A DNA stretch of 64,000 bases from an uncultured archaeon (GCA_964384995.1 CAYLMJ010000003.1:25007-89006), one strand, 5' to 3'; positions 8,250 through 41,711 are shown, counted from the stretch's first letter. The notes: a model not told the origin generated them from the letters alone. Numbers and translations: made by a program.

Positions 8250-10340
<2,091 letters not shown>

Positions 10341-10628
10341 TGGTTGCCCCTCCCGGTAAGCTCATTCCCACTGCCCCGGTCGCTGATGGTCAAGCCCTCC
10401 TCCGGGCTCCCTGAGGCGAGGTCGACCCGCCCAGAGCCATGGCCAAAACCGATGGGATAAGTCAGTGAAAAGACCCCATGGAATAGGTGATTGGCCATTA
10501 AGGGGTCTTTATAAAAGTCTGCCCCAACCGTGGGGAGTCACTGGCGAGGCCTGTCGGCGGGGTGTGAAAGGCCACTGGCCACCACAAAGGTTAAAGTTGA
10601 ATGGGGATTCGGCGCTGTGGTGGCTAAA

Positions 10629-11300: not shown

Positions 11301-11372
11301 CCCGGGAACCCTGGTTACTGCGAGCCTTTCGACCAATTCTCTTTCTCAGAGAGATTCCTCGATGCCTCCTCC

Positions 11373-11802: not shown

Positions 11803-11990
11803 AACTCGGAGCCAACTCGGAGCCAACTCGAAGCTACCTCGAAGCTACCTCGAAGCTTCTACGAAGGAACACCGAAGCTACAACGAACCTATACCGAAGG
11901 AACACCGAAGCCACAGTATAGGGCGAGTATAGGCTGAGTATTAGACGAGTATAGGATGAGTATTGGACGAGTATGGGGGAAGTATGGGAA
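11803..11990. repeat. Composite short-period tandem repeat tract upstream of the ELWxxDGT protein gene
   Basis: The tract contains aactcggagcc x2, then aactcgaagct, acctcgaagct x2, cgaaggaacaccgaagc x2, and about six 10-11 bp units of the form gagtatRGGNY. Confidence 0.6.
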
Positions 11991-12092
11991 CCCCTCCCTC
12001 CCAGTATAGGTATGTATTGTGTCCCCAACAGCTATATCAAACCTGCAAATTGCCAGGAGCGTCAGCTGTCTTTGCAATACCGGGTGTACAAC

Positions 12093-21512: not shown

Positions 21513-21558
21513 GGGGACAGGGGATAATAGAGGGGATTCCCGAGGCTGATTTTAATAG
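21513..21558 (+). promoter_or_regulatory. Shared promoter element copy 1: ggggacaggggataatagaGGGGATTCCC, then 9 nt, then TTTAATAG, upstream of the pilin-like gene
   Basis: Same architecture as the copies at 22153, 25561 and 32139: a G-rich palindrome of GGGGAyTCCC type with a TATA-like box 8-9 nt downstream. Confidence 0.5.
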
Positions 21559-21588
21559 TATCAGACGCAACCGATATATGGTGTAAAG

Positions 21589-22095
21589 ATGACCGAACTG
21601 GATTTGAAGAAGGATAGCAACGCAAGATCGGCAGTGATCGCCGTCGTCGCAATGATGCTCATCGCCTTGAGCCTTGCAGGCCTGTTGTATACTTGGAGCT
21701 CAAGCTTTCTGGAACAGGGTGAGGCGGCGCCCATAATCCAAATGGACTGCTCCAAGGACGCCAATGGCAACTACCGTTGCGTGGTCATCAAGGTCAGCAA
21801 GAGCTACTCCATGAAGGGAGGCACCTACTCTTTCTTCCTGAAGGATGAGACCGGTCTATCGAAGATGTTTGGACCATTGTACGAGATATACTGTTTTCGT
21901 TATGGCGACGGCAAGGGCGTGGTGTATGCCGATTACAACCTCGACACCCGCCTGAACGCAGGGGATGTATTCTACATATATCCCGATGAACCCGGCTCGC
22001 CCTTGGAAGGTATCGTTGACATGGATGATTACAAGCTGGAGATCAAATACAACATCACCGACAGCACCGTCGGCAGTTTCAAGCTAGGTGGTTAG
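21589..22095 (+). CDS. Pilin-like secreted protein with a class-III (type IV prepilin-like) signal-peptide-like N-terminus (A1)
   Basis: N-terminus MTELDLKKDSNARSAVIAVVAMMLIALSLAGLLYTW: charged, then a hydrophobic helix. The C-terminal domain ...CVVIKVSKSY...YSFFLKDETGLS...YKLEIKYNITDSTVGSFKLGG is paralogous to the C-terminus of ORF 32231..34009. Confidence 0.55.
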   Translation: MTELDLKKDSNARSAVIAVVAMMLIALSLAGLLYTWSSSFLEQGEAAPIIQMDCSKDANGNYRCVVIKVSKSYSMKGGTYSFFLKDETGLSKMFGPLYEIYCFRYGDGKGVVYADYNLDTRLNAGDVFYIYPDEPGSPLEGIVDMDDYKLEIKYNITDSTVGSFKLGG

Positions 22096-22152
22096 TTCAA
22101 CCCAGTCGAGAGCCCCCAGAAGTTGAACAAACGCCACCCAAAAGAGGGGAAT

Positions 22153-22192
22153 AGGGGAGTTTTTGGGGACTTCCCACAGAGGTAATATATAG
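22153..22192 (+). promoter_or_regulatory. Shared promoter element copy 2: AGGGGAGTTTTTGGGGACTTCCC, then 8 nt, then AATATATAG
   Basis: Sits 30-70 nt upstream of the ATG at 22224. Confidence 0.55.
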
Positions 22193-22223
22193 AAAAGCTG
22201 CCAAAGTATAATTGGTTGATCAA

Positions 22224-25200
22224 ATGAATGGAGCCTCCAGACTCACCATTCGCTCGCCCGGGTTTCTTCTCCTTTTCTCTTTGCTGGCGGGTGTGGTGGG
22301 CTCTGAATATGGTGGTTCCCGAGGTCACCAGAGGGGTTATGCACAACCATCCACAAGAGGCTCAGGTGAAGCATCGAATGAAAAGGCCTCCCGACCCTGG
22401 CCGGCCTCAGAGCTCCGCCGCTGGCCCATTGAACGATTGATGAAACGGGCCCTGGAACTGGAACGCTCCGCTCCCCGCAAGGCGCTGATGCTCTACTATC
22501 ACCTGACCGAGCGCTCGACCATGGTCCTGCGTCGTTCCATGCGGCTCTTTGCCATCATCGTGTCGGCCTACAGTCTCATCTTCTCCATCTTCTTGAACCT
22601 GGGCCTGTCGATATTCTTCTTCATATCTCTCGTCGGAGCCTGCCTCTACCATCCCCGGACCAAAGTGGATCGCAACCTGGGTTACCTGGCCCAGCTGGGC
22701 ATCGCCCGCTGTTACATGCTTCTGGGAGCTCCCTACAAGGCCTATCGCTACCTCGAGGTGGCCCGGGTGGAGAGCCCGCCCCGCCTCAAGGCCCTGCACG
22801 AGTCCCTCCTGGCCATCATCCGCGGCCGGCGCAAGCAGGCCCTGGCCCATCTCGATCGGGCTCGAGAACGCCACAACGATCTTCGCACCTGGGGTCTCGC
22901 CTGGCCCTACTACCGCTCCTCGGCCACCAACACCGGAAAACTGATGGGAGCCATGAAGCCGGGCGCAACATCTCGCAGTGAGCAAGCCAAGAAGGGAACC
23001 TCAACTGGCGTGGACGCGAGGCCGGTACGACACCATCGCGAGCGGGCGGTTTCAGGGAATGCTCATCAGATCCAGTGCATTCACAAGGGTTCGGCCCCCA
23101 CCAAACATCAGCTGTTGAAGGAGGCCTTCCGGCTGGAGCCAACCAAGCCCCATTCGGCCATCTACCTCTACAACCAGGTGGGTCTGAAATCCGAACGGGC
23201 CCTGCGCAAGCTGGCGCTCCTGTTCCTGCTCATCCTGATCCCCCTGACCCTGGACAGCGTCTGCTTCATCTTCGTCATCCTCAGCCTGGTCATCGTGCTC
23301 CTGATATACGGCGAGCCCCACCGCTTCGTGGTGGCCCGGGAACTGGCACCCCTGGGAGCGGCTCGATGCTACCTGCGCACCGGTCAGACCAACCAGGCCA
23401 ACCGTCGTCTGAACCAGGTCTTCAAACGCCGCCTCCCCTACCTGCGTCCCCTCTACAATGCCACGGTCTCCATCGGGGCCGGGCGCAACGATCAGGTGGA
23501 ACACTACCTGAAGAGGTCCCCGCTGTACAATCTCAGCAAGGCGAGCCAGTTCTACTATCGCAGCTCCCTGGAGCTGACCCGGCGGTTGAGCAAGGACCTG
23601 GCGGTCGAGAACTTCGACGTGGCCACGAAGAGCCCGCAGGATGAGCGCTGGAGAAAGCCGGCGCAGGCCGCAAGGTCCTCACCCGCGGAGTCCAAGACCG
23701 ATGAGCCCACGCCCGAGAAGCCTATACCGGTGGCAAGCAAGCCTCTCACAACCGACGCGGTGAGCTCTGCCGAACCGGTGGTATCGGTGATCAACGATGA
23801 GGGTCATCTGGACCCCACGGTCAAGGCCGGGGAGCCCGACCCCCTGACCTTCACCATCGGCTCCCGGATCTACCATCTTAACCTGGGCGCCGGCACCATC
23901 CAGGCCCGCTTCCCCCACGGGAGGAACTGGCGCCTGAGGGTCCAGTTCGACCGCTCCACCGAGATCCACGATGTCATCTCCAACTACCTCACCCCCATGG
24001 GGAAAGCGACCGCCGTCGAACCCCCTTCCAAGCCCGAAGGTGTGGTCGCCAGGTTCGCCGGACCTCCCGGGGTACGCCCCATCGCGGATCGCAACCTGCG
24101 TCCGGTCCTGCCCTTTGCCTCGCCTGTCACCCCCAACGCGGCCATGGCGTCGCGACCCCTTCCCGCTCCGATCCCGGTCCAGGCCTCCTCTGCTGGTCAA
24201 CCCGCCCCCCGAGTACCCCACCGGGAAGTCCTGCAGGAGCCCTACCATGTGGAATGGATGGATCTGATAACTGTGGAGGCCAGCGGGACCCCCGACCTTG
24301 AAGATGAAATCACAACCGAGCCCGAGCCCGTACAGGTGTCCGAACCCGAACCAGCCTCTCAGCCTGAGCTCCAACAGGAGTCCCAACCAGACCCCCAACC
24401 GGAGTCCCAACCAGACCCCCAGCCATCTGCCCCACCGGTATCAGCCACTGAGGGATCTGCCGAGGCAAACCACCCCAGCTCATGGCCGGTCCAGTGGGTC
24501 GATGCCGAGGTGGATGACCGGGTGGCCGAGCTCGACCAGCGCCTCGCCGAGCTGACCCAGCTGGTCCTTGAGCCCAAGGATGAACCGGACCCAGCTCCCA
24601 CTCCTGCCTCAGCCCCCGAAGCGACCCAAGTGGAGGTGGAGGCCCAACTCTCCCATCGACAGGCTCAGGTGCTCTACCTGGTCCGGGTCAGGAACCTTTC
24701 ATCCCGCCCCATCCTCGATGTGAAGGTGAAGCTTCATCTTGAGGGTCTTCAATTCAAAGTGGTGCAGGAGGCTCCCAACCAAAACTCCCTGGCTCCAGGA
24801 GGTTCAGGCAAGTTCCTCTACCTGCTGGAGCCCACCACCGAGGGAGCCAATGGCACCCTCAAGGCCGACCTCAGCTACATCGACCATCAGGGCGGCATGA
24901 CCGTGGAACAGCCCATCGAGGCCCTTGCCACCGGGATAGTGTGGCCCAGGCTGTCCGATATGAGGACCGACCGCAAGTGGCGCGAGGTCACCCGGGGGCT
25001 CGTATCCCACAAGGAGCGCTTCGACGGCGCTCCCCTGCCGCCGGGCCTCCTGTTCGAGCTGGTCTGCCGCATCCTGGGCGATCTCAACCTGCGCTCGCGC
25101 AAGCCCAAGCTCATCGAGACCTCCTCGTTCTATTCAGGCCGGGCACGATTCATGGCCCAGGATGAGGCTGGCAGATCCTGCGCGGTCCAGGCCGAGGTGG

Positions 25201-25427
25201 TGGGCGGCCCCCTGCGGACCCGTCTTCTGCTCAGGGTCTACGCCCCCTGCGAGGCCTCGGTGGCGGGACTCTATCATCTGGTGCGGGAGGAGCTGACCCT
25301 GCGCCTGGAGGTGGGCGAGGCCTCCGACCCGGTGGTCTACCAGGTCAACGGCGACTTCGTCGAGGGCTCCAAGACCGAGGTGCGCGACTCGGTGGTCAGC
25401 CGCTGGGCGGCCAACTCCGACGCGTAG
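22224..25427 (+). CDS. Large membrane protein B1: duplicated TM-hairpin module, long disordered Pro/Glu-rich linker and the conserved C-terminal cytoplasmic module shared with B2 and B3
   Basis: Two copies of a helix plus two-TM hairpin plus (E)LAPLGxARCY(L/M) module are present. The C-terminal approximately 330 aa aligns with the C-termini of ORFs 25631..27952 and 28907..32059 (...EVVGGPLRTRLLLRVYAP...LRLEV...VYQVNGDFVEGSKTEVRDSVVSRW). Confidence 0.7.
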   Translation: MNGASRLTIRSPGFLLLFSLLAGVVGSEYGGSRGHQRGYAQPSTRGSGEASNEKASRPWPASELRRWPIERLMKRALELERSAPRKALMLYYHLTERSTMVLRRSMRLFAIIVSAYSLIFSIFLNLGLSIFFFISLVGACLYHPRTKVDRNLGYLAQLGIARCYMLLGAPYKAYRYLEVARVESPPRLKALHESLLAIIRGRRKQALAHLDRARERHNDLRTWGLAWPYYRSSATNTGKLMGAMKPGATSRSEQAKKGTSTGVDARPVRHHRERAVSGNAHQIQCIHKGSAPTKHQLLKEAFRLEPTKPHSAIYLYNQVGLKSERALRKLALLFLLILIPLTLDSVCFIFVILSLVIVLLIYGEPHRFVVARELAPLGAARCYLRTGQTNQANRRLNQVFKRRLPYLRPLYNATVSIGAGRNDQVEHYLKRSPLYNLSKASQFYYRSSLELTRRLSKDLAVENFDVATKSPQDERWRKPAQAARSSPAESKTDEPTPEKPIPVASKPLTTDAVSSAEPVVSVINDEGHLDPTVKAGEPDPLTFTIGSRIYHLNLGAGTIQARFPHGRNWRLRVQFDRSTEIHDVISNYLTPMGKATAVEPPSKPEGVVARFAGPPGVRPIADRNLRPVLPFASPVTPNAAMASRPLPAPIPVQASSAGQPAPRVPHREVLQEPYHVEWMDLITVEASGTPDLEDEITTEPEPVQVSEPEPASQPELQQESQPDPQPESQPDPQPSAPPVSATEGSAEANHPSSWPVQWVDAEVDDRVAELDQRLAELTQLVLEPKDEPDPAPTPASAPEATQVEVEAQLSHRQAQVLYLVRVRNLSSRPILDVKVKLHLEGLQFKVVQEAPNQNSLAPGGSGKFLYLLEPTTEGANGTLKADLSYIDHQGGMTVEQPIEALATGIVWPRLSDMRTDRKWREVTRGLVSHKERFDGAPLPPGLLFELVCRILGDLNLRSRKPKLIETSSFYSGRARFMAQDEAGRSCAVQAEVVGGPLRTRLLLRVYAPCEASVAGLYHLVREELTLRLEVGEASDPVVYQVNGDFVEGSKTEVRDSVVSRWAANSDA

Positions 25428-25560
25428 GCCGAGCAAACGTCTCTCCTTCCCCTCCTCTTGCCCTCACTCCTGCTCTTGGCCCTGCTTGTGCAAATGCCTG
25501 TTCGATGGGTTGCGAACCCGGGTCATTCACCCCAAGAGAATGCTGGCTGAGGGATGGGAT

Positions 25561-25600
25561 AGGGGAGTATTGTGGGACTTCCCCCATTCTGCATATATAG
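25561..25600 (+). promoter_or_regulatory. Shared promoter element copy 3: AGGGGAGTATTGTGGGACTTCCCCC, then 7 nt, then ATATATAG
   Basis: Sits about 30 nt upstream of the ATG at 25631. Confidence 0.55.
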
Positions 25601-25630
25601 ACCCAGACCAAACCATCTATCGGTGTAAGG

Positions 25631-27952
25631 ATGACGAGGTCTCCCGGACTCATTGTATCGTTCCTGTTTTTACTGATCGCAACCCAGCTCATGCTCGCCC
25701 CGGCCTTTGTGGCTGGGGATGATCATCCATCCGTGGATGTGGAGCTGGACCAGGATATGGAGGAAGTGGGCAACCAGCCTCCCATTGCCGTCATCACCCA
25801 TGTCTTCCGCTCCCGGGTCAATTTCAGCGAGAGCGTGGTGTTGCGGGGAATGGGCGTCGACAACGATGGCTACATCATCCAGTATCGCTGGTGGTCCGAC
25901 CTCGATGGGAATCTGTCCTCGGCCTCGGGGGAGGTGGTATTCGATGATCTTTCCGTGGGAGAGCATGTCATCTCCTTCGCGGTCAAGGACCAATTGGACA
26001 ACTGGTCCCAACCCGACCAGGTGAATGTGACCGTCATGCCTCGAGTGGTTCCATCGGTCACCCATATCCGTCACTATCCCTACTATGTCAAGGTTGGGGA
26101 GGGGGTCCGGTTCTATGCCTACACCAACCCCTCCGACCCATCGATCCAGCGATACAAGTGGGACCTGGAAGGCGATGGTCTCTGGGACAGCCTCACCGGC
26201 TCCGACAACATCTACTACCGCTACACCACCTCCGGACACTACTGTCCCACGGTCATGGTGATGGACGAGGATGGCCAGTGGTCTGAGCCCTACCATGTCA
26301 GCCTGCAGGTGCGGCCCCAATCGTATCATGAGCGTGAAGGAGAGAGCGAGGAGGAGGCCGCGCTGGGTGGACTATGCCTGCTCTTCCTGGTCGTCGTTGT
26401 GCCCCTCGCCACCTACAAGTGGGGTGCAAAGCGCCAGCGAAAGCGATGTCAGGACAAGGGTCATCAGGCCGCGACCAAGACCAAGCAGGACCCGGTGAAG
26501 TTGATGAACGAGGCCTTGGCCCTGGAGGCTCAGGACCCCAACCGGGCCCTGCCACTCTTTAGAGCCGCCAACCAGAAACGGTCCGATGTGCCCGCCTGTT
26601 GTGGGATCATCACGGTCCTCATGATCTTACTGCTGGTGCTCATCCCTCATCCCATCTTCTTCATCGGCGTGGTCCTGGGCATGTGCGCCTGCCTGCTGGC
26701 CACCGAGAACCCTACTCGCAAAAGCGCCCGGGAGCTGGCGCCTCTGGGCGTTGCCCGCTGCTACCTGCGCTCCGATGCACCCGGACACGCTCTGGGGATC
26801 CTGCGCAAGACCAACGGGCTCAACCCGTTCTACCTAGACAACCTCTACGCCGCCACCCGCTCCCTGGCCAGGGGCAACCGCAACCGGGCCAGGTACTTCC
26901 TGGGCCGGGCCTACCGCATCCCACGCCCCAACGGACCGGCCTTCTACTACCTCTCCCTGGGCCTGACCCAGACCCTCATGGAATGGCAGATGCAGAGAAA
27001 GCTCTCTGCCTCCAAGAAGGCCAGGAAGACCGGGAGGACCGACGAGGAGACCCGTTCGCGAAAGAAGTACAAGGTCGTGACGAACAAGGAGCGGCCCAAG
27101 AAGGAGGGCGACAAGATGGAGGGGGAGCCGGTCATGTCCGCAAAGGACAAAGGACCCGCTACCTCCAAGTATCTTCTGAGCTCCGAGCCCCGTGCCGTTC
27201 CGACCAAGATCGATGACGCTTCCCAGGAGCCCAAGCCAAGGCCAGAACCGGAGCCAGCTCAGAGCTCGGAGAGCTCACCGGCCGCCCCCGAACCGGCCGT
27301 GACCGCCCGCCCCGCACCTCAGGCTAAGGCTGTCGTCCCGCCCCCGACCGGGACACCCTCCTCCTCAACATCATCATCAACGCCGGCGGTCTTCTCAACT
27401 GTATCACATTCCATTCCCCCCTCCTCAGCTGAAGCCTCCCCGACCGTCGCCGACACCTCCCGCAAGTGGCGTTCGGCCCGCTCGGGCTCGGTCTGGCGCC
27501 AGAGCCGCTTCGAGGGGCTGACCCTGGCCCCCTCGGCCCTGATGGAACTGGTGGAATGGGTGATGGAGGGGCTCGATCTCGAGCGGATCAAACCCTCGGT
27601 GACCCAGGTCCCGGGCCACTTCATCGGCCTGATACGGTACTTCGCCCATGATCACGAGGGTCGACCCCACGGGGTCCAGCTCGAGGTCATCGGCGGGCTC
27701 AACCGCACCCGCCTGCTGATCCGGGTCTACGCCCCCGATGACAAGGCTCTGGAGGAACTCCACGCCCTGGTGCAGGAGGAGCTCTCCCTGCGCCTGGAGG
27801 TGGCCACTCCGGCGGCCTCACCTGCAGCCTCACCCGCAACCTCACCGACCGACACCCCGGTCCAGAAGGTCTCCGGTGACTATGTCTGCGGCTCCAAGAC
27901 CGAGGTCAAGGACTCGGTGGTCAGCCGCTGGGGCCGCCCCGTCACTGGTTGA
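25631..27952 (+). CDS. Large type-I membrane protein B2: signal peptide, PKD-like ectodomains, a single TM-hairpin module and the conserved C-terminal cytoplasmic module
   Basis: Signal peptide MTRSPGLIVSFLFLLIATQLMLAPAFVAG and PKD-like motifs (DNDGYIIQYRWWSDLDG). The ELAPLGVARCYL module is present. The C-terminus ...LEVIGGLNRTRLLIRVYAP...LRLEV...VQKVSGDYVCGSKTEVKDSVVSRW matches B1. Confidence 0.7.
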   Translation: MTRSPGLIVSFLFLLIATQLMLAPAFVAGDDHPSVDVELDQDMEEVGNQPPIAVITHVFRSRVNFSESVVLRGMGVDNDGYIIQYRWWSDLDGNLSSASGEVVFDDLSVGEHVISFAVKDQLDNWSQPDQVNVTVMPRVVPSVTHIRHYPYYVKVGEGVRFYAYTNPSDPSIQRYKWDLEGDGLWDSLTGSDNIYYRYTTSGHYCPTVMVMDEDGQWSEPYHVSLQVRPQSYHEREGESEEEAALGGLCLLFLVVVVPLATYKWGAKRQRKRCQDKGHQAATKTKQDPVKLMNEALALEAQDPNRALPLFRAANQKRSDVPACCGIITVLMILLLVLIPHPIFFIGVVLGMCACLLATENPTRKSARELAPLGVARCYLRSDAPGHALGILRKTNGLNPFYLDNLYAATRSLARGNRNRARYFLGRAYRIPRPNGPAFYYLSLGLTQTLMEWQMQRKLSASKKARKTGRTDEETRSRKKYKVVTNKERPKKEGDKMEGEPVMSAKDKGPATSKYLLSSEPRAVPTKIDDASQEPKPRPEPEPAQSSESSPAAPEPAVTARPAPQAKAVVPPPTGTPSSSTSSSTPAVFSTVSHSIPPSSAEASPTVADTSRKWRSARSGSVWRQSRFEGLTLAPSALMELVEWVMEGLDLERIKPSVTQVPGHFIGLIRYFAHDHEGRPHGVQLEVIGGLNRTRLLIRVYAPDDKALEELHALVQEELSLRLEVATPAASPAASPATSPTDTPVQKVSGDYVCGSKTEVKDSVVSRWGRPVTG

Positions 27953-28802
27953 TCGGGGCCAGACCAGAAAGGGCTTCTTCCTCCACCGGTCCCAGCCTGG
28001 CCGGCACCATGAGGGTGTGAGGCGGAGACCCGAACTCCCGTTCGATCAGTTCATCAGCCTTGCCGCAGGCCACCAGCGGGTCGGACCAGCCCGCCCGGGC
28101 CACCACCACCGCCAGATCATCCTCCTTCAGGGGTCCCGAAGGGCCGGTCAACAGCTCCAGACCTTGGTTAGCGGTCATGGCCTCCGGAGACCGAGTGGGG
28201 TCGTCGGCCCGGATGTCCAGGAGCACCAGCGTGTGCAGGTCGGCGGCCAGGTTGGCCCGCACCATCTCCAGGGGACTGGAGGGGGCCTTGCCCGTTCCGT
28301 CGGGCAGGACCAGGGTGACGGTGCGGCCGAAGCGGTAGAAGTCGAGGCCGGCCATCCCCGGAGCAGTGGTCAGGATGGAGGTGTTGGCCACCAACGAACA
28401 TTCGATGCCAGCCTGCCGGGCTTCGGTCCGCAGGGTCGAATGGGTCGTGGCGCTCAGGGGGTCGCCTCCCACCAGCAGCACCGTCGGCCCCCTTCGGGCC
28501 GCCTCTAGCAGAAGGCCTCCCTCCTCGACATAGCATCTTGGCAGAACCACCAGCGATTCCCGGGCCTGATCCAGCAAGCGTTCAACGGGAGGTTCTGCGG
28601 GTGAGCCATCAAGGGAGGCGGGCGGCGCGGGCTCCAGATGGAGACTCCGTCCATGTCTGCTGGCCAGTCGCTCAAGGCTTCCAGGAGGCAGAAGGGTGGT
28701 GTAGGTCTCGGCGAGGAGGAATTGGGTCTCTTCTATGAGCCTCTCCCCCTTCAGGGTCAGGTCATTTTCCCCGCCCAGGCCCAGGCCGACCAGTGAGAGC
28801 AT
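27942..28802 (-). CDS. dphB: Diphthine synthase (EF-2 diphthamide biosynthesis methyltransferase)
   Basis: N-terminus MLSLVGLGLGGENDLTLKGERLIEE...AETYTT and ...VGGDPLSATTHSTL..., a tetrapyrrole-methylase fold. Start set at the ATG at 28802; the 3' end overlaps B2 convergently by 11 nt. Confidence 0.8.
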   Translation of the reverse strand: MLSLVGLGLGGENDLTLKGERLIEETQFLLAETYTTLLPPGSLERLASRHGRSLHLEPAPPASLDGSPAEPPVERLLDQARESLVVLPRCYVEEGGLLLEAARRGPTVLLVGGDPLSATTHSTLRTEARQAGIECSLVANTSILTTAPGMAGLDFYRFGRTVTLVLPDGTGKAPSSPLEMVRANLAADLHTLVLLDIRADDPTRSPEAMTANQGLELLTGPSGPLKEDDLAVVVARAGWSDPLVACGKADELIEREFGSPPHTLMVPARLGPVEEEALSGLAPINQ

Positions 28803-28906
28803 GGGCTTCCAGCGGCAAGGACTATTAAAGTCCAATTAACGACCCTTTACCAAAAGCTCTATATCAAGCATCCAACTTAATTAGGGATTAACCGTGGAGG
28901 ACCTCC

Positions 28907-31900
28907 ATGCGTAACTCCCGTCTACTGGTCGGCCTGGTTGGCCTGGGCCTGCTCATCCTGCTCCTTTCCCTGGTGTCAGAGGTATCCGCCCAGACCAGGT
29001 TGGAGGGCAAGGTCACCGATAGGTTCGATGATGGTGTTCAGATGAAGGGGGTCGTCATCGTTCTCACTAAAGAGGACAATGATACCCTGGTATACAATTT
29101 CACCACGGATGCATCGGGCTATTATTCCGAAGAAAAGATGGAACCAGGGAAGTACACATTCGAGGTTTCCCTTGAAGGATACTGGGACCGCGAGGGTAAG
29201 GTGGAGCTCAGCGAGAATGAAACATTCAAACGCGACTTTCAACTATTGCCCAAGGAGGCCGGCAAGGGACTCTTCTGGGGATTCATCAGTAAGTCCCAGG
29301 ATGGTGGGCCAATCGACCATGCGGCCCTGACCATGGAACGTGTCTCCGGCGGACCGACCCAGATCTATCGAACGACCGTGGAAGAGGATGGCTACTTCTC
29401 CAGACTTTTGAATCCTGGTGGATACGACCTTTGGATCGCTGCCTACGGCTATGAAGCAAAAGCCCACGGGACCGAGCAGGTGAAGGACCAGACACCGACC
29501 CGTTACGATTTCTACCTGGACCACGAGACCTCCACCACCAACACCTTCATGGAGAGCTGGATCAAGGATGACAAGGACAACCGGCTGGCCGGGGTCGGCG
29601 TATCCATCACCAAGGATGGCGGCCGCCAGGCCGATCACTTCACCATCAGCGACGCCAACGGCTGGTGGCAGGTGGGTCTGGACAATGGTGGTTCCTACCA
29701 GGTCGACTACCAGCTGGAGGGCTACGGTCCCGTCCAACAAGTGTTCACAGTCAATGAGGGCCAGACCAACCCCGTCGATGTCCAGGTCCTCATTCTCAGA
29801 CCCGACGCCAGCATCGATGGCATCAACACCGGTCATGCGGGTTTCGCGGTCAAGGGCGAGGACATCGTGTTCAAGGGCTCGGCCAGCGGTGGCAGCGGCA
29901 CCTATACCGATCTCGAGTGGAGCTACACCGAACCCGGAGGCGGTTCCCAGGAAACCCTCGGCAGCGGCGACACCCTGACCAAGAGCATTCCCGTCGGCCT
30001 CCAATCGGGCACCTACTCCATCCACCTCAGGGTTCGCGATGACAACGGTCAGTGGAGCGAGACCGTCAGCCAGGAGCTGGAGGTGTATGGCAGACCCAAG
30101 GTCGAGATAGACCTCCAGGGCACCAACAACCCCACCACCGCCGACACCACCGTCATGGGTACCAACGTCCTATCCAGCGACTTTGGCATCGCCAGCCATC
30201 AGTGGCAGCTCTTCCAGGACTCCATCGACAGCGAGCAGCGCCTGGCCGGGGACCAGGAGAGCTTCGAGATCAGGTGGTTCGATCACGGCCTGGAGCCCGA
30301 TGTCTACATCGTGCGGCTGAGGGTCACCGACGAGTACGGGCTGGTGAGCAACTGGGCCACGCAGGATCTGAGCCTCCATGACCAGAACGAGAACCGCCCT
30401 TACATCGAGGGGCTCAACAAGTACGAGTTCTATCCCGATGACTGGCTGGAGGCCCACGGCAACACACAGGGTGCCGACACCGACGATTTCAAATGGGAGA
30501 TAGACGGCCGGGACGTCAGCCACGACCAGAACCTCCATGTCAACCTGAGGGATCTGGACCTGGACCAGGGCGAACATGAGATAGTCTTCGCCTACCACAA
30601 CAGCGAGGACGGCTGGGTCTACAGCGAATCTCAGCGTTTCTACTACAATGCCGATGAGGGGCCCGAGCCCCAAGAGGTCATCATTCCACTGCTGATCATC
30701 TTCATCATCCTGATGCTCATCCGCCGCCGCCGCAAGCGCAAGAGGCGAGCCAAGAAGGAGGCCAAGAAGGCCGCCAAGGCCCCGGCCATCCCCCGGGCCA
30801 CCGCCGCCCCTGGGCTGAACGTGCCCGAGAGCAGTCTCTACGATGGAGGGGCCTCGCCCTACGCCCCCCGGGCCAGGACCGGCCGGCAAAAGGCGCCGGT
30901 CATCGATCTTGCAAGACCCCGGTCGCAACGACCGCACTTGAAGGGCGAGGGTGCTGCCCCTGTGTTCGGAACCTCCATGCCGGACATCGATGGCAAGGGC
31001 AAGCCCAAGGCTCCCGAGGGCAAGATCGAGCTCAAATCGGCGGTCAATTACGAGAAGGCCAACATCATCTTCAAGGTCAAGGTGGAGAACAACACTGACA
31101 AGCCCATCGCCGAGGTGCGGGTGCGGCCCTTTGCCCCCACCAATCTCTTCAAGGCCGACAAGGAGGAGCGCACCATCGGGCTGATCCAACCCAAGCAGGC
31201 CCAGACGGCCACTTTCAAACTGCGGCCCAGGGGCGAGTGCGGCAACGTCACCCTGCAGGCCAAGGTCACCTACTACGACACCGGCACCAACAAGTACGCC
31301 GAGCAGGACGCCAAGCCCCGGGAGACGGCCATCATCTGCCCCATGCTCAAGTATGAGGACATAGACGAGGATGAGTGGCGCAAGAACGTCTCCAAGATGC
31401 TCAAGGTGGAGGAGACCACCGACAAGATTCCCATGGATGGCGAGTCGCTCTACTCCATGGTCTGCGACGTCTTCCAGGACCAGAACCTGACATCCATCTC
31501 GATGAACGTGGACCGGGGCCGGGTCTTCCGCGGCCGGGCCATGTTCTGGGCCAAGGGGGCTGTGGCGGCCAAGGGCCTGGGCTACGCCGCCCAGATCGAG
31601 GTCATCGGCGGCGAGCTGAAGTCCAAGCTCATCCTGAAGGCCTTTGCCAAGGGCGAAGACTCCCTGGTGGGCTTCTACCACTGCCTGCTGGACGAGATCG
31701 AGAAGCGCACCAGCGTCCGCGACTACCTGGACACCGGCGTCACCGTCCAGCATGTCTACGGTGACATGGTCAAGGGTGGCAAGGTGGACATCAAGGACTC
31801 AGTGCTCCAGCGCTCCAACATCACCACCGAGAGCGCCCCCTCTGGATCCGGCGACGATGACGACCCCTACCTGGACGTCAAGGGCGACAAGGTCGAGGGC

Positions 31901-32059
31901 GGCAAGGTCGAGATCCACGACTCCGTCGTAACCAGGTCCAAGGTGGGCCCCGATGGCGAGGAACGGTTATCGGCCGGCGATGACACCACCGGCAGTCTGG
32001 ACGAGGGCATCGACCAGCTCAGGAAGTTCGTCAAGGACGATGAGAAGGACGAGAAGTAG
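28907..32059 (+). CDS. Large type-I membrane protein B3: signal peptide, carboxypeptidase-regulatory-like and PKD-like ectodomains, TM anchor with a poly-basic stop-transfer, and the conserved C-terminal cytoplasmic module
   Basis: Signal peptide MRNSRLLVGLVGLGLLILLLSLVSEVSA. TM segment IIPLLIIFIILMLIRRRRKRKRR. C-terminal ...IEVIGGELKSKLILKAFAKG... ending in two copies of G(D/K)xV(K/E)GGKV(D/E)I(K/H)DSV(L/V)xRS. A GGAGG sits 8 nt upstream of the ATG. Confidence 0.7.
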   Translation: MRNSRLLVGLVGLGLLILLLSLVSEVSAQTRLEGKVTDRFDDGVQMKGVVIVLTKEDNDTLVYNFTTDASGYYSEEKMEPGKYTFEVSLEGYWDREGKVELSENETFKRDFQLLPKEAGKGLFWGFISKSQDGGPIDHAALTMERVSGGPTQIYRTTVEEDGYFSRLLNPGGYDLWIAAYGYEAKAHGTEQVKDQTPTRYDFYLDHETSTTNTFMESWIKDDKDNRLAGVGVSITKDGGRQADHFTISDANGWWQVGLDNGGSYQVDYQLEGYGPVQQVFTVNEGQTNPVDVQVLILRPDASIDGINTGHAGFAVKGEDIVFKGSASGGSGTYTDLEWSYTEPGGGSQETLGSGDTLTKSIPVGLQSGTYSIHLRVRDDNGQWSETVSQELEVYGRPKVEIDLQGTNNPTTADTTVMGTNVLSSDFGIASHQWQLFQDSIDSEQRLAGDQESFEIRWFDHGLEPDVYIVRLRVTDEYGLVSNWATQDLSLHDQNENRPYIEGLNKYEFYPDDWLEAHGNTQGADTDDFKWEIDGRDVSHDQNLHVNLRDLDLDQGEHEIVFAYHNSEDGWVYSESQRFYYNADEGPEPQEVIIPLLIIFIILMLIRRRRKRKRRAKKEAKKAAKAPAIPRATAAPGLNVPESSLYDGGASPYAPRARTGRQKAPVIDLARPRSQRPHLKGEGAAPVFGTSMPDIDGKGKPKAPEGKIELKSAVNYEKANIIFKVKVENNTDKPIAEVRVRPFAPTNLFKADKEERTIGLIQPKQAQTATFKLRPRGECGNVTLQAKVTYYDTGTNKYAEQDAKPRETAIICPMLKYEDIDEDEWRKNVSKMLKVEETTDKIPMDGESLYSMVCDVFQDQNLTSISMNVDRGRVFRGRAMFWAKGAVAAKGLGYAAQIEVIGGELKSKLILKAFAKGEDSLVGFYHCLLDEIEKRTSVRDYLDTGVTVQHVYGDMVKGGKVDIKDSVLQRSNITTESAPSGSGDDDDPYLDVKGDKVEGGKVEIHDSVVTRSKVGPDGEERLSAGDDTTGSLDEGIDQLRKFVKDDEKDEK

Positions 32060-32138
32060 GCCTTCATCAGCGGGCCGGCCATCCGGTCAGTATCTGCCGC
32101 CTCCTGTTGCAGTATTGCAGTATGATGGAGTTATAGCC

Positions 32139-32185
32139 AGGGGACTGGGGATATTTCGGGGACTTCCCGCGAACCGGCTATATAG
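32139..32185 (+). promoter_or_regulatory. Shared promoter element copy 4: AGGGGACTGGGGATATTTCGGGGACTTCCC, then 9 nt, then CTATATAG
   Basis: Sits about 45 nt upstream of the ATG at 32231. Confidence 0.55.
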
Positions 32186-32230
32186 GCAGAACCGGAGCCA
32201 TCATCGGTCGTCAGACGGCCAGTGAAGCAA

Positions 32231-34009
32231 ATGAAAGACCATGATGAAGATTTCGGTAACGGACAGTACCATACAACAAAGCCTCCCCTGTTGTTTCCCA
32301 ACCTGAGTGAGAACCTAATGAGGTACTTTTCCATCCGGGGATTCATCTCTATCTACTTCGCCTTTTTAGCGTTGATATTCCTGCTCGGGGGTATCGCTAA
32401 CGTAATCCTTTTTTTCATCCTCCCAGAAATGACCTACTTCAATCTCATAATGGGCCTAGCCAGTTTTCATTTAGGCCTTGGTCTGGCTTATCTATCTCGG
32501 TATATCTGGAAAGGAGCGGAAAATGGAGATAGCAAGAAAAAGAAGTGCGAACTGGTCGCATTTAGCTTTGCTTGTGTGATTCTGATATTGGGCACATTTT
32601 TGTGGATTGATAATTATCTGATCAACAATTATATGCGCGACTATGATGACTATTTCCGAATAATAATGCTATTGCCTGTTTTGTTATTGATAGTACTAGT
32701 ATTGGGGTTGCTGATTATCAATAAGATATCCGTCTTTAAAGAGTTATCAAACGCGAAAACATTACGGTGGTTCACGATCCATTTAGTGATATTGTATCCC
32801 TTCATATTCCTTGAATGGTTATTCCTTATTTTCTTTTCCTTTGGAGTAGCTTTTATTATAATTGCGTATACGGGTTTTTGGCTTCGATATGTATTTAAAG
32901 GTAATCTATACAGAAAATCAACAACTATGCCTGTCCAATACTGCGATGATGGGCTGTATTCCTATTTAGCCCTATATGGTGGGTTAAGCTGGATGCCGAT
33001 CTTGGCAACGTTGGCATTGATGATGTGTTTTGGTTTCATGAATTGCTCAACGGTCCTGTTCCATCCGTCCGAGATAGCTGTTATTGTGATTTTTATTACT
33101 CTCTCAATAACACCGCTGTTCATCCTAATGATAAAATTAAGAAATCAATATCATAATCCATATAGATTATTATCAATATGGTTGTGTTCCGTATCACTCC
33201 AATACATCGCTGTTTTAGGTTTGATAATTGATCCAAGGATGGAAGGATTCGGTGGTACGATCAGTACCGTCATCTACTTCACCTGGCCCATCACCTTGCT
33301 GATCCTATCAATATGTTCGAAACTAGCAATTTCCACATGGAAAACAAATGAGAATAGTGTGGAAGGCAGAAATCATTCAAGCCTTTCTATTATACCCGCC
33401 ATAGTCATTTTCCTAGTATTGCCAATTATTTCCATCAATTACGCATACTCAGTGGATTGGCCTGATGAACCATATTATGGTTATGGCCCGCTCATACAAA
33501 TCGAATGTATCGAGAACGACAATGATGATTATGAATGCAAGGTCATCAAGATATCAAGAAACTACGATCTTGAAGCCTACCAGTACTTCCTGAAGGATCG
33601 CACCGGTTTGACCAGCCAGTTCGGTGAGATCGCTCTACAGAACATCAGCGGCTCCTGGCATGGTATAGATGTCACGTGGGACGACGACGGCCCTGCTGAT
33701 ACCAACCAAGGTAACAGCAAGGCCGACCGTGCCAAGGATTCTGGTGGTGCTTACATTGACACCGACCAGGCCCAGATCCGCATAGATGATGTCCAGGCTG
33801 GGACCCAGGGAACCAAGAACAACCAGAAGAGCGAGGGCCGCATCTCGGCATCATTTATGGACAACGACCGCAACGGCAAGCTCACCGCTGGCGATCAGTT
33901 CACCATCAGAGGCAACCAACCATATCATCCAGCCAATGACGGCTGGAGACTGGAGATAAAGTACGACATCTCTGACGACACAATCGGCTCCTTCTTGCTA
34001 GGGGCCTGA
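32231..34009 (+). CDS. Chimeric membrane protein A2: N-terminal polytopic domain of about 10 TM helices with foreign low-GC codon usage, fused to a C-terminal pilin-like extracellular domain paralogous to A1
   Basis: Nucleotides about 32280-33550 are about 38% GC with A/T-rich third codon positions, against about 63% GC nearby. The C-terminus ...ECKVIKISRNYDLEAYQYFLKDRTGLTSQFGEI...WRLEIKYDISDDTIGSFLLGA aligns to A1. Confidence 0.65.
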   Translation: MKDHDEDFGNGQYHTTKPPLLFPNLSENLMRYFSIRGFISIYFAFLALIFLLGGIANVILFFILPEMTYFNLIMGLASFHLGLGLAYLSRYIWKGAENGDSKKKKCELVAFSFACVILILGTFLWIDNYLINNYMRDYDDYFRIIMLLPVLLLIVLVLGLLIINKISVFKELSNAKTLRWFTIHLVILYPFIFLEWLFLIFFSFGVAFIIIAYTGFWLRYVFKGNLYRKSTTMPVQYCDDGLYSYLALYGGLSWMPILATLALMMCFGFMNCSTVLFHPSEIAVIVIFITLSITPLFILMIKLRNQYHNPYRLLSIWLCSVSLQYIAVLGLIIDPRMEGFGGTISTVIYFTWPITLLILSICSKLAISTWKTNENSVEGRNHSSLSIIPAIVIFLVLPIISINYAYSVDWPDEPYYGYGPLIQIECIENDNDDYECKVIKISRNYDLEAYQYFLKDRTGLTSQFGEIALQNISGSWHGIDVTWDDDGPADTNQGNSKADRAKDSGGAYIDTDQAQIRIDDVQAGTQGTKNNQKSEGRISASFMDNDRNGKLTAGDQFTIRGNQPYHPANDGWRLEIKYDISDDTIGSFLLGA

Positions 34010-34067
34010 TTGGTGAACAACCCCACTATCACAAACTTTATCAAGGCCCGCCTTCATGAATTGACCA

Positions 34068-34277
34068 ATGGACTCCGAGATAATCTTTCTCGTTGAAGAA
34101 TCAATTGAAGGCGGCTTCGAGGCCCGTGCTCTCGACCATTCGATCTTCACTCAAGGTGAGACCTTTGAGGAATTGAAGGAGATGGTCAAGGATGCTGTCA
34201 AGTGTCATTTCGAAGCTGATGAGAGGCCCTCAGTCATCCGCCTCCACCAGGTAAAGGAGGAGGTAATGGCGGCTTGA
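34068..34277 (+). CDS. hicB: HicB-family antitoxin (UPF0150 type)
   Basis: 69 aa, ...IIFLVEESIEGGFEARALDHSIFTQGETFEELKEMVKDAVKCHFEA, the RNase H-like HicB pattern. Its stop overlaps the start of hicA. Confidence 0.6.
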   Translation: MDSEIIFLVEESIEGGFEARALDHSIFTQGETFEELKEMVKDAVKCHFEADERPSVIRLHQVKEEVMAA

Positions 34278-34519
34278 GGCTACCTCGCAACGTATCTGGC
34301 ACACAATTGGCCAAGGCTTTGGGAAAACTGGGCTACGTGTTGGTTCATCAGACCGGAAGCCATATGCGACTGACCCGTCGAGTAGATGAAGAGCACCATC
34401 TGACGATACCCCGACATAAACCGCTAAAGGTCGGAACTCTGAATGGTATCCTCAAGGATGTTGCTGAACACCTGGCCATCAGTCGTCTGGACCTTCTGGA
34501 ACTGCTATTTGGAAAATAG
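34274..34519 (+). CDS. hicA: HicA-family toxin (YcfA-like mRNA interferase)
   Basis: 81 aa, VSGTQLAKALGKLGYVLVHQTGSHMRLTR...HLTIPRHKPLKVGTLNGILKDVAEHL, matching the HicA dsRBD-like motif GSH...H. TTG start overlaps hicB. Confidence 0.65.
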   Translation: MRLPRNVSGTQLAKALGKLGYVLVHQTGSHMRLTRRVDEEHHLTIPRHKPLKVGTLNGILKDVAEHLAISRLDLLELLFGK

Positions 34520-38032: not shown

Positions 38033-38122
38033 AACCCTTCCTCTCGTCATTCCTACCTTCATTCGTCAATATTCATCGACGAAGCCCTTATTAGGCCAAT
38101 AGCCCAAAGCTGCTTGACCCCC

Positions 38123-41605: not shown

Positions 41606-41711
41606 GGCAAGGATGGGCCTCGTGCTCGGTCCTGTGCCTCCCTTCATATGACTTTCTCGAGTTCCTCCTTACATTGGGGTAACCATTAAGGCCCCGGTGG
41701 CGACTGGAGGG

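What the first reader, a model, noticed from the sequence alone, without database searches (positions are those of the whole stretch)
21513..34009. Accessory locus: two pilin-like proteins bracketing three paralogous large membrane proteins that share a conserved cytoplasmic C-terminal module of unknown function
The locus encodes five genes that look related in function. A1 (21589..22095) has a class-III signal-peptide-like N-terminus and a beta-rich extracellular domain that recurs at the C-terminus of A2 (32231..34009). Between them sit B1, B2 and B3 (22224..25427, 25631..27952, 28907..32059). Their N-terminal parts differ: B1 has a duplicated TM-hairpin module, B2 has PKD domains plus one TM-hairpin module, and B3 has CarbopepD-like and PKD domains plus a single TM. 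All three end in the same approximately 150-330 aa C-terminal module (...(I/L)EV(I/V)GG.L..(K/R)L(I/L)(I/L)(K/R)(A/V)(F/Y)A..., then LRLEV, then a terminal GDxVxG(S/G)KxE(V/I)xDSV(V/L)xR(W/S)). That module lies on the cytoplasmic side of the last TM. I know no characterised family with this module or this pilin-like domain. The arrangement suggests a surface-sensing or adhesion apparatus that signals into the cell, or a secretion or assembly system, specific to this lineage. Four of the five genes carry the same promoter element (separate finding), indicating co-regulation. An unrelated housekeeping gene (dphB) sits inside the locus on the opposite strand, and a hicBA pair abuts it.
Basis: partly seen in the sequence, partly recalled or inferred. 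Interest (0 to 1): 0.85.

Follow-up and report, generated by a model that had tools for sequence, protein, structure and literature searches.

The report
Archaeal adaptin-ear membrane proteins beside pilins
Three neighbouring archaeal membrane proteins share a cytoplasmic domain predicted to fold like the 'ear' of eukaryotic clathrin/COPI adaptors, a domain already reported in 2024 in archaeal ESCRT membrane-remodelling loci; here it occurs in an uncultured, probably marine archaeon with no ESCRT genes nearby and is co-regulated with type IV pilin-like genes.

Summary
All five ORFs exist, B1, B2 and B3 share a C-terminal module (BLASTP E 5e-34, 4e-32, 1e-8), and the A1 domain recurs at the end of A2 (E 2e-13).

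In Methanolobus, Methanoperedenaceae and a 34% GC archaeal MAG, close homologues sit beside ESCRT-III-like, Vps4-like and SPFH genes. This is the 'Meth_adaptin' ESCRT system of Makarova et al. 2024. The module is present in 18 of 23 metagenomic loci of at least 9 kb seeded on that Snf7-like protein.

A1 and A2 are archaeal type IV pilin-like proteins of the PF07790 family.

The A–B linkage holds only in close relatives, but a composite promoter motif supports co-regulation (3 hits in the window, 0 in shuffles). The 64 kb window has no ESCRT-III, Vps4 or SPFH gene.

Verdict: a new variant of a known kind. The apparently undescribed parts are the tail motif, the transmembrane-hairpin module, the pilin co-regulation and the lineage.

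The parts
21520..21558 (+). A1 promoter region. Short variant of the shared element (GGGGATAATAGAGGGGATTCCC) followed by a TATA-like TTTTAATAG.
   Evidence: Read directly from the sequence. It is weaker than the other three copies.
21589..22095 (+). A1, an archaeal type IV pilin-like protein of 168 aa. It has an N-terminal hydrophobic helix (residues 10-42) and an eight-strand Ig-like beta-sandwich.
22147..22192 (+). B1 promoter. Composite element GGGA..GGGGA..GGGGACTTCCC (22147-22175) plus a TATA box (22184-22192).
22224..25427 (+). B1, 1067 aa. It has two TPR-like/transmembrane-hairpin modules, a long low-complexity linker, a full appendage-like module and the tail motif.
22404..22898 (+). 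B1 transmembrane-hairpin module, copy 1 (about aa 61-225).
   Evidence: It is homologous to copy 2, to the B2 module and to L001 ORF 6536-7342, which lies in a Snf7/Vps4 operon.
23082..23588 (+). B1 transmembrane-hairpin module, copy 2 (about aa 287-455).
24612..25403 (+). B1 appendage-like module (beta-sandwich plus platform) with the tail GDFVEGSKTEVRDSVVSRW (DSV begins at 25386).
   Evidence: BLASTP to the B3 module gives E 4e-32 over 271 aa.
25556..25600 (+). B2 promoter. Composite element (25556-25583) plus a TATA box (25593-25600).
25631..27952 (+). B2, 773 aa. Order of parts: signal peptide, PKD domains, TM, one transmembrane-hairpin module (about nt 26462-26980), a Pro/Ser/Thr-rich linker, then the platform half of the module with the tail (nt 27440-27934; DSV begins at 27911).
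27942..28835 (-). Diphthine synthase (dph5/dphB). A housekeeping gene conserved at this position in the relatives; not part of the system.
   Evidence: TIGR00522 E 6.5e-56. Synteny is seen in L009, L032 and L037.
28907..32059 (+). B3, 1050 aa. Order of parts: signal peptide, three CarboxypepD_reg domains, PKD domains, a single TM (aa 587-605) followed by 12 K/R, the full appendage-like module, and two copies of the tail motif.
31022..31348 (+). B3 module, Ig-like beta-sandwich subdomain (model residues 10-118).
31367..31714 (+). B3 module, alpha/beta platform (TBP-like) subdomain (model residues 125-240).
31724..31945 (+). B3 disordered tail with two copies of the linear motif: GDMVKGGKVDIKDSVLQRS (DSV at 31796) and GDKVEGGKVEIHDSVVTRS (DSV at 31919).
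   Evidence: pLDDT is about 30 in the modelled part, up to nt 31840; the second copy lies outside the model. The family-wide consensus is (V/I)KDSVVQRSxIG.
32141..32185 (+). A2 promoter. Composite element (32141-32168) plus a TATA box (32179-32185).
32231..34009 (+). A2, 592 aa. A polytopic membrane N-terminal region (about 10 hydrophobic segments, no family match) is fused to an extended A1-type pilin-like domain (nt 33341-34006). Its composition is foreign: GC3 is 0.39-0.51 against about 0.8 in the B genes.
34068..34519 (+). hicB-like/hicA toxin-antitoxin pair. It is part of the variable, low-GC3 slot that also holds A2; a relative has VapBC here.
   Evidence: HicA E 9e-14. GC3 is 0.5-0.6. 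L037 carries VapB/PIN at this position.

Best explanation
B1, B2 and B3 are paralogous membrane proteins. Their extracellular or membrane parts vary: PKD and CarboxypepD_reg binding domains, or TPR-like transmembrane hairpins. These parts are coupled to a cytoplasmic adaptin-appendage-like interaction hub, consisting of an Ig-like sandwich plus a TBP-like platform (platform only in B2). The hub ends in a disordered tail carrying the short linear motif (V/I)KDSVVxRS.

They belong to the protein family that forms the 'adaptin' component of the archaeal Meth_adaptin ESCRT system: ESCRT-III-like, MIT-AAA Vps4-like, SPFH and appendage proteins.

The most likely role is as membrane-anchored adaptors or cargo receptors. 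The appendage-like domain and the tail motif would recruit, or cluster with, cytoplasmic partners at sites of membrane remodelling, such as vesicle budding or surface-protein sorting. The machinery would be encoded elsewhere in this genome.

A1 and A2 are type IV pilin-like surface proteins. In this lineage they lie next to the B genes and share a transcription-factor site with B1 and B2, so they are probably expressed together as a cell-surface regulon rather than forming one molecular machine.

Shown: the paralogy, the predicted fold, family membership, the neighbourhood association in other lineages, and the motif and its specificity. Inferred: the binding partners, the ESCRT dependence in this organism, and the cargo or vesicle function.

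For: Family size. There are 600 representative clusters at E<=1e-3, and the N-termini vary widely.

Neighbourhood. L001, L015, L027 and L028 have Snf7-like and MIT-AAA genes beside module genes. Among 23 metagenomic loci of at least 9 kb seeded on the Snf7-like protein, 18 have the module, 21 SPFH, 18 Vps4 and 16 the tail motif. This matches the published Meth_adaptin description (PMC11188069).

Tail motif. The strict motif is found in 44 module ORFs and only 7 other ORFs out of 6776. Those 7 lie in loci fetched for this system, and in L001 they are other genes of the Snf7/Vps4 operon.

Hairpin module. The B1 and B2 hairpin modules are homologous to a tail-bearing protein in the L001 Snf7/Vps4 operon.

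Promoter. The composite motif gives 3 hits against 0 expected. It is conserved in L009 and L037, and a variant precedes A-type genes in L036 and L038.
Against: No ESCRT-III, Vps4, SPFH or winged-helix coiled-coil gene was detected in the 64 kb window, nor in the loci fetched from the same species and two close relatives (L009, L032-L035, L037).

Seen from the module side, only 4 of about 25 genomic loci have Snf7-like genes nearby, so most paralogues are dispersed.

The hairpin-to-ESCRT link rests on one locus, L001, and is absent from 23 of 23 Snf7-seeded loci.

The fold assignment rests on a predicted structure. Global TM-scores are low (0.3-0.39) because the two subdomains are oriented differently. 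No sequence-level similarity to eukaryotic adaptins was found.

No binding partner of the tail or of the appendage-like domain is known. The monomer model does not dock the tail in cis.
Confidence: 0.55

Rival explanations
1. ESCRT-independent hub. In this lineage the appendage-like module and tail act as a general cytoplasmic docking or oligomerisation device. It might cluster surface adhesins or enzyme-binding proteins, or tether them to a cytoskeletal or S-layer-associated partner, with no link to ESCRT-III/Vps4.
For: The window and its close relatives have no ESCRT genes. Most module paralogues in genomes are not next to Snf7-like genes. The family is fused to very diverse domains, including DUF835, WD40, FGE-sulfatase and kinase-neighbour contexts.
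Against: Seen from the ESCRT side the association is strong: 18 of 23 loci. The same tail motif is shared with other proteins in the ESCRT loci. ESCRT genes could simply lie elsewhere in the genome.
Confidence: 0.25
2. Pilus-associated apparatus. The A pilin-like proteins and the B membrane proteins would form one surface adhesion, sensing or assembly machine, with the B proteins acting as anchor or platform for A-type filaments.
For: The genes are adjacent, and the adjacency is conserved in L009 and L037. A1 (variant form), B1, B2 and A2 share the promoter element. A T2SSF (PilC/FlaJ-like) gene lies 15 kb upstream at 5693-6973.
Against: The locus has no assembly ATPase or prepilin peptidase. 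A-domain clusters exist without any B gene (L036, L038). The B family is widespread without A domains: 0 of 23 Snf7-seeded loci and none of the genome loci carry an A domain. The B modules are cytoplasmic and adaptin-like, which is not a known pilus-component fold.
Confidence: 0.12
3. Fold convergence. The sandwich-plus-platform arrangement is analogous to adaptin appendages rather than homologous. Ig-like and helix-grip folds are both common, so the adaptin comparison would carry no functional meaning.
Confidence: 0.08

Closest known systems
'Meth_adaptin' archaeal ESCRT system (Makarova et al. 2024, PMC11188069; example Methanosalsum zhilinae WP_013898571.1 and WP_013898578.1)
   Same: The protein family is the same. 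The B3 module is 40-50% identical to the module proteins encoded beside Snf7-like, Vps4-like and SPFH-zinc-ribbon genes in Methanolobus vulcani (L028), Methanolobus sp. (L027), Methanoperedenaceae (L015) and the 34% GC MAG GCA_016840305.1 (L001). The architecture is also the same: an extracellular domain, a TM, an Ig-like plus TBP-like appendage region, and a tail.
   Different: The window has no ESCRT-III, Vps4, SPFH or winged-helix coiled-coil gene within 64 kb. It has three tandem paralogues with PKD, CarboxypepD_reg or transmembrane-hairpin N-termini in place of GOLD or zinc-ribbon domains, and no C-terminal zinc ribbon. It is linked to and co-regulated with pilin-like genes. The lineage (high GC, probably Poseidoniia-related) is not covered in that paper. 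The text held of that paper (main text; no supplementary files were available) does not mention the tail motif or the hairpin module.
Eukaryotic adaptin/COPI appendage ('ear') domains (AP-2 alpha and beta2, AP-4 beta, gamma- and beta-COP; also the BBSome GAE plus platform)
   Same: The predicted bipartite fold matches, with an Ig-like sandwich followed by an alpha/beta platform in the same order. The domain sits at the C-terminal end of a flexible linker. By analogy it is plausibly a hub for short linear motifs.
   Different: No sequence similarity was detected. The domain is attached to integral membrane proteins rather than to a HEAT-solenoid trunk of a soluble heterotetramer. The subdomain orientation differs. 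Conservation of ligand-site residues was not examined. The ligands are unknown.
Archaeal type IV pilins and archaellins (Pfam PF07790 Pilin_N; solved examples H. volcanii pilus 8fj5, Natrinema PilA2 8gi2, Cuniculiplasma filament 8rey)
   Same: A1 has the N-terminal hydrophobic helix plus Ig-like sandwich 'lollipop'. Its family members match PF07790, and the family profile hits solved pilins.
   Different: A1 itself falls below the Pfam threshold and its leader and cleavage site are atypical. In A2 the pilin-like part is internal, lying behind about 10 transmembrane segments, which is not a canonical prepilin. The locus has no assembly ATPase or prepilin peptidase.

Membership tests
Adaptin appendage-like region (Ig-like plus TBP-like) | N-terminal Ig-like beta-sandwich subdomain | tested here: met
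   B3 model residues 10-118 form a sandwich with pLDDT above 85. B1 aligns over this part. B2 lacks it.
Adaptin appendage-like region (Ig-like plus TBP-like) | C-terminal alpha/beta platform (helix-grip/TBP-like) subdomain directly after the sandwich | tested here: met
Adaptin appendage-like region (Ig-like plus TBP-like) | Solved appendage domains are the best structural matches over both subdomains | tested here: met
Adaptin appendage-like region (Ig-like plus TBP-like) | Sequence-profile similarity to adaptin or COPI appendage families | tested here: not met
   Pfam gives no significant hit. The only traces are faint: Alpha_adaptinC2 at E 0.069 and GAE_BBS1 at E 0.037, both in relatives. 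The profile search of PDB sequences finds no adaptin. An HHpred-type comparison against Pfam was not available.
Adaptin appendage-like region (Ig-like plus TBP-like) | Binds short linear motifs of accessory proteins at platform and sandwich sites | not testable with these tools
   This needs binding assays or co-structure prediction of complexes.
Meth_adaptin ESCRT system (Makarova et al. 2024) | Module protein homologous to the appendage proteins encoded in Vps4/ESCRT-III/SPFH loci | tested here: met
   tblastn identity to B3 is 40-50% in L015, L027, L028 and L001. The module is present in 18 of 23 Snf7-seeded loci.
Meth_adaptin ESCRT system (Makarova et al. 2024) | ESCRT-III (Snf7-like) and MIT-AAA Vps4 genes in the same locus | tested here: not met
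   tblastn and jackhmmer with the L001 and L028 Snf7 and Vps4 proteins find nothing in the window or in L009 and L037. The rest of the genome was not available.
Meth_adaptin ESCRT system (Makarova et al. 2024) | SPFH protein with coiled coil and zinc ribbon in the locus | tested here: not met
   jackhmmer with the L028 SPFH protein gives no hit in the window.
Archaeal type IV pilin (PF07790) | N-terminal class III signal / hydrophobic helix matching Pilin_N | tested here: inconclusive
   A1 has the helix (residues 10-42), and 24 of 44 family members match PF07790. A1 itself scores below threshold, with only UpsA at E 0.043.
Archaeal type IV pilin (PF07790) | Ig-like beta-sandwich globular domain after the helix | tested here: met
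Archaeal type IV pilin (PF07790) | Assembly ATPase, platform protein and prepilin peptidase available | tested here: inconclusive
   A T2SSF platform-like gene lies at 5693-6973. No secretion ATPase or peptidase was found among the window ORFs scanned. The rest of the genome was not available.

The most novel reading that the evidence does not exclude
In this uncultured archaeal lineage (probably related to the marine Poseidoniia), adaptin-ear-like membrane receptors with a dedicated linear tail motif and wedge-like transmembrane hairpins would form a self-contained system for clustering or budding cargo, working without a neighbouring ESCRT module. The system would be transcriptionally wired to type IV pilin-like surface structures. 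The tail motif would be the ligand of the appendage-like domain, so that the proteins polymerise into a primitive coat-like lattice.
Probability: 0.15. Interest if true: 0.8.

Novelty: new variant of a known kind. Interest (0 to 1): 0.5.

Why it matters
Adaptin appendage domains are a hallmark of eukaryotic vesicle coats. Their presence in non-Asgard archaea was proposed only recently, and mainly from ESCRT-linked loci in methanogens and haloarchaea.

This locus extends the family to an uncultured high-GC archaeon, probably Poseidoniia-related. It shows that the domain is a widely reused cytoplasmic module on surface-exposed membrane proteins: about 600 clusters at 50% identity, with very varied ectodomains.

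It also adds two testable elements. One is a highly specific disordered tail motif, (V/I)KDSVVxRS, shared with other proteins in the ESCRT loci. The other is a transmembrane-hairpin module.

Together these give concrete handles for asking how archaeal 'proto-adaptor' proteins connect cargo to membrane remodelling: peptide pull-downs, complex prediction, and genetics in the cultivated genus Methanolobus, provided a genetic system is available for it.

Tried and rejected
Searches that gave little or nothing:

- The word-indexed homology search with the three window modules found only 3 relatives and wrongly suggested an orphan family. The exhaustive HMMER search corrected this to 600 clusters.
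- Pfam and NCBIfam gave nothing for the module, A1 or A2.
- The AFDB50 fold library was unavailable.
- The first genome scan, with a 27-sequence alignment, failed for lack of conserved stretches and was rerun with a closer set.
- The exact 11-mer GGGGACTTCCC alone is not significant: 4 matches against 4.4 expected. Only the composite element is.
- The literature search for the tail peptide strings found nothing.
- The ANME-3 paper hit was a false lead; the search term had matched the word 'adapting'.
- No supplementary tables of the ESCRT paper were held.

Considered and rejected:

- Low-complexity paralogy was rejected by the E-values and the confident fold.
- A bactofilin or hexapeptide-repeat nature of the GDxVxG..DSVV tail was rejected because the tail is predicted disordered and occurs once or twice, not as a solenoid.
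- A site-specific invertible pilin segment in L009 has no convincing flanking inverted repeats.
- I looked in the window for Snf7, Vps4, SPFH and a pilus ATPase and found none.

Full report
**1. Observation**

- A1, 21589-22095.
- B1, 22224-25427 (the mechanical ORF starts at a TTG at 22212).
- B2, 25631-27952.
- An opposite-strand gene, 27942-28835.
- B3, 28907-32059.
- A2, 32231-34009.
- Two small ORFs, 34068-34519.

The opposite-strand gene is diphthine synthase (TIGR00522, E 6.5e-56). The second small ORF is HicA (E 9e-14) and the first is weakly HicB-like (E 0.043).

Pfam confirms PKD domains in B2, and three CarboxypepD_reg domains plus PKD in B3. It finds nothing for the shared C-terminal region, A1 or A2.

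Pairwise BLASTP shows that the paralogy is real. B1/B2 C-termini give 5e-34 (44% identity). B1/B3 give 4e-32 over 271 residues. B2/B3 give 1e-8. The TPR-like/transmembrane-hairpin module of B2 matches both copies in B1, at 1e-13 and 2e-8. A1 matches the end of A2 in two segments, at 2e-13 and 6e-10. A tblastn of all five proteins against the window shows that the C-module is confined to B1-B3.

One refinement is needed. B2 has only the second half of the module, preceded by a Pro/Ser/Thr-rich linker.

**2. The shared promoter**

B1, B2 and A2 are each preceded by GGGA-N3-7-GGGA-N5-9-GGGACTTCCC, 18-20 nt upstream of a TATA box. This composite pattern occurs three times in the window and never in 100 shuffles. 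Among the 79 loci fetched, it occurs only in those from the same species or close relatives (L009, L032-L035, L037).

A1 has a shorter variant and B3 has none. A variant core, GGGAGTTCCC, with the same upstream repeats, precedes A-type pilin-like genes in two other loci (L036, L038).

This supports a lineage-specific regulon that includes A-type genes and the hairpin-bearing B genes.

**3. What the B module is**

The word-indexed search found only three homologues. An exhaustive HMMER search of 1.84 billion cluster representatives found 600 at E<=1e-3 and 125 at E<=1e-30. The module is almost always C-terminal to highly varied regions. These include zinc ribbons, PEGA, CARDB, PKD, WD40/PQQ propellers, FGE-sulfatase, DUF835 and TPR.

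I predicted the structure of the B3 module with AlphaFold2 from a 25-sequence alignment. The model is confident (mean pLDDT 81.7, pTM 0.72). It has three parts:
- Residues 10-118: a beta-sandwich.
- Residues 125-240: an alpha/beta platform.
- Residues 244-282: disordered (pLDDT about 30). This stretch contains the conserved GDxVxGGKxxIKDSVLQRS sequence.

Foldseek agrees independently. Its first 15 hits are beta2- and alpha-adaptin, gamma- and beta-COP and BBS9 appendages, with E 4.6e-9 to 6e-6 over about 240 aligned columns.

Global rmsd and TM-scores are poor (11-14 A; 0.3-0.39). This is because the two subdomains are oriented differently, but both align in the same order.

There is no sequence-level similarity to adaptins. 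Homology is therefore inferred from fold and architecture only.

**4. Genomic context elsewhere**

The NCBI contig carrying homologue P0002 (L001, GCA_016840305.1, 34% GC) is a co-directional operon:
- A coiled-coil plus module protein.
- A TM plus module protein.
- A coiled-coil protein.
- A zinc-ribbon protein with three DSV(I/V)x(R/K)S repeats.
- A TPR-like/transmembrane-hairpin protein ending in GDYVGGDKVEIKDSVVSKS.
- A Snf7-like protein (Pfam Snf7 covered end to end, E 0.0028).
- A MIT-AAA, Vps4-like ATPase.

A scan of one genome per species found 24 loci. They come from Thermoplasmata MAGs, Candidatus Methanoperedens, Methanosarcinaceae (including the cultured Methanolobus profundi and M. 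vulcani), a Halobacteria MAG and, distantly, a Promethearchaeota MAG. A distant Thorarchaeota homologue also turned up.

Snf7-like and Vps4-like genes lie within 3 kb of the module gene in L015, L027 and L028. In M. vulcani the arrangement is Vps4-like and Snf7-like on one strand, diverging from an SPFH-zinc-ribbon gene and an ectodomain-TM-module-tail-zinc-ribbon gene on the other.

I then seeded a metagenome scan on the Snf7-like protein itself. Of the 23 loci of at least 9 kb, counts were as follows:

| Feature | Loci with it (of 23) |
|---|---|
| Module | 18 |
| SPFH | 21 |
| Vps4-like | 18 |
| Winged-helix coiled-coil protein | 19 |
| Tail motif | 16 |

This is the 'Meth_adaptin' ESCRT system described by Makarova et al. 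2024 (PMC11188069). That system comprises Vps4, ESCRT-III, two proteins with an adaptin appendage region (Ig-like plus TBP-like domains, one of them joined to an extracellular GOLD domain through a TM linker), and an SPFH protein with a zinc ribbon.

The fold assignment reached here is therefore independent confirmation of a published one, not a new discovery.

**5. What may be new**

The following are not mentioned in the text held of that paper (main text only; no supplementary files were held).

(a) The tail. Its core is (V/I)-K-D-S-V-V-Q-R-S-x-I-G, with D 97%, S 100%, R 88% and S 95% conserved. A strict version occurs in 44 module ORFs and only 7 other ORFs out of 6776 six-frame ORFs from all loci examined. 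Those 7 lie in loci fetched for this system, and in L001 they are other genes of the Snf7/Vps4 operon. The tail behaves like a dedicated short linear motif.

(b) The hairpin module. The TPR-like/transmembrane-hairpin module of B1 (two copies) and B2 is homologous to the tail-bearing hairpin protein of the L001 operon (jackhmmer). It is absent from the 23 Snf7-seeded loci.

(c) The lineage and context. The window has no Snf7-like, Vps4-like, SPFH or winged-helix coiled-coil gene. Nor do the syntenic loci from its relatives (L009, L037).

**6. What A1 and A2 are**

The A1/A2 profile finds 448 homologues. Many are annotated as flagellin-like or type IV pilin N-terminal domain proteins, and one source names Candidatus Poseidoniia. 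Of 44 sampled, 24 match PF07790 Pilin_N, with best E 9.2e-14. The family profile hits the solved Natrinema PilA2 pilin at E 2.9e-5.

A2 fuses an extended copy of this domain to about 10 hydrophobic segments, which is not a canonical prepilin.

**7. Is A+B one system?**

The arrangement B1-B2-dphB-B3-A2 is conserved in the same species (L032-L035) and in two relatives, L009 and L037.

Against a single system, three points stand out:
- L036 and L038 carry clusters of four to six A-domain genes with no B gene.
- No A domain occurs in any other B-family locus.
- A2 and hicBA are compositionally foreign, with GC3 0.39-0.6 against 0.78-0.91 for the B genes. The slot they occupy is variable: L037 has VapBC there, and L009 has a rearranged A2-like gene.

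The link between A and B is therefore regulatory and local, not a conserved machine.

**8. Mechanism**

Shown: B2 and B3 place PKD and CarboxypepD_reg domains outside the cell and the module inside. Their anchoring TM is followed by 7 and 12 K/R residues respectively.

Inferred: the appendage-like domain and the tail act as a hub-and-motif pair. They would recruit or cluster cytoplasmic partners. By guilt of association in other archaea, those partners are most likely ESCRT-III/Vps4-type membrane-remodelling factors encoded elsewhere. The B proteins would then be cargo receptors or adaptors for vesicle budding or surface-protein sorting.

The monomer model does not dock the tail in cis. Its receptor could be an appendage-like domain in trans, a MIT domain, or the winged-helix coiled-coil protein. 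This is unknown.

I put 0.55 on this explanation. The rivals are an ESCRT-independent hub (0.25), a pilus-associated apparatus (0.12) and pure fold convergence (0.08).

**9. Verdict**

- The claim that both domains are unknown is out of date.
- The locus is a new variant of a known kind.

It is of moderate interest for four reasons: the extension to a new lineage, the specific tail motif, the hairpin module and the pilin-linked regulon.

The organism is an uncultured archaeon. A Thermoplasmatota/Poseidoniia affiliation is inferred only from the named relatives of A1 and is not proven here.

Noticed in passing
window 32231-34519: A2 and the hicBA pair have GC3 of 0.39-0.6, against 0.78-0.91 for B1-B3. 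They look like a recently acquired island, yet A2 carries the lineage's promoter element. The same slot holds VapBC and a fragmented A2 in L037 (about 9072-11342).
   Followed up: partly
L009 9212-9872: In the close relative the A2-like gene is split. The 5' part is on the plus strand (9212-9544) and the 3' part is inverted (9528-9872, minus strand), next to a hicA remnant. No convincing flanking inverted repeats were found, so this could be an inversion, gene decay or an assembly artefact.
   Followed up: partly
window 5693-6973 (+): A T2SSF-family gene (PilC/FlaJ-like platform, E 3.7e-13) lies about 15 kb upstream of A1. No secretion ATPase or prepilin peptidase was detected beside it.
   Followed up: partly
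proteins P0003, P0153, P0015 and others: Some module-family proteins (7 of 170) end in an acidic, tryptophan-containing C-terminus, D(V/I)(D/E)W(E/K/D). This may be a second linear motif. In addition, 70 of 170 have a C-terminal CxxC...CxxC zinc ribbon after the tail. The window's B proteins have neither.
   Followed up: no
L001 2700-2940 (C-terminus of P0002): P0002 has an extra C-terminal domain of about 60 aa (...RAGDLHRQVGGYPGSNHRMPVCCSVM...) after the tail. It has no Pfam match.
   Followed up: no
window 23800-24030 (B1 residues about 530-600): A short, well-ordered-looking segment (SRIYHLNLGAGTIQARFPHGRNWRLRVQFDRSTEIHDV) sits between low-complexity linkers. It resembles a small Tudor/SH3-like domain but has no family match.
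   Followed up: no
window 494-3349 (-), 11973-15704 (+), 38114-41605 (+), 41697-44864 (+), 58726-62583 (+): The window is unusually rich in very large PKD, CARDB, CarboxypepD_reg or Big_7 surface proteins that lack the appendage-like module. The 58726-62583 protein shares the CarboxypepD_reg plus PKD ectodomain type of B3.
   Followed up: partly
window 6980-8122 (-): A 380 aa protein made entirely of HEAT repeats (HEAT_2, E 5e-60). Adaptin trunks are also built of HEAT repeats, but nothing here links this gene to the B proteins.
   Followed up: no
L006 8093-10105 and L002 10001-11524: Module-family genes also occur next to a TPR Ser/Thr kinase (L006), or fused to a DUF835 domain (P0157 in L002). 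These suggest additional, non-ESCRT contexts for the module.
   Followed up: no
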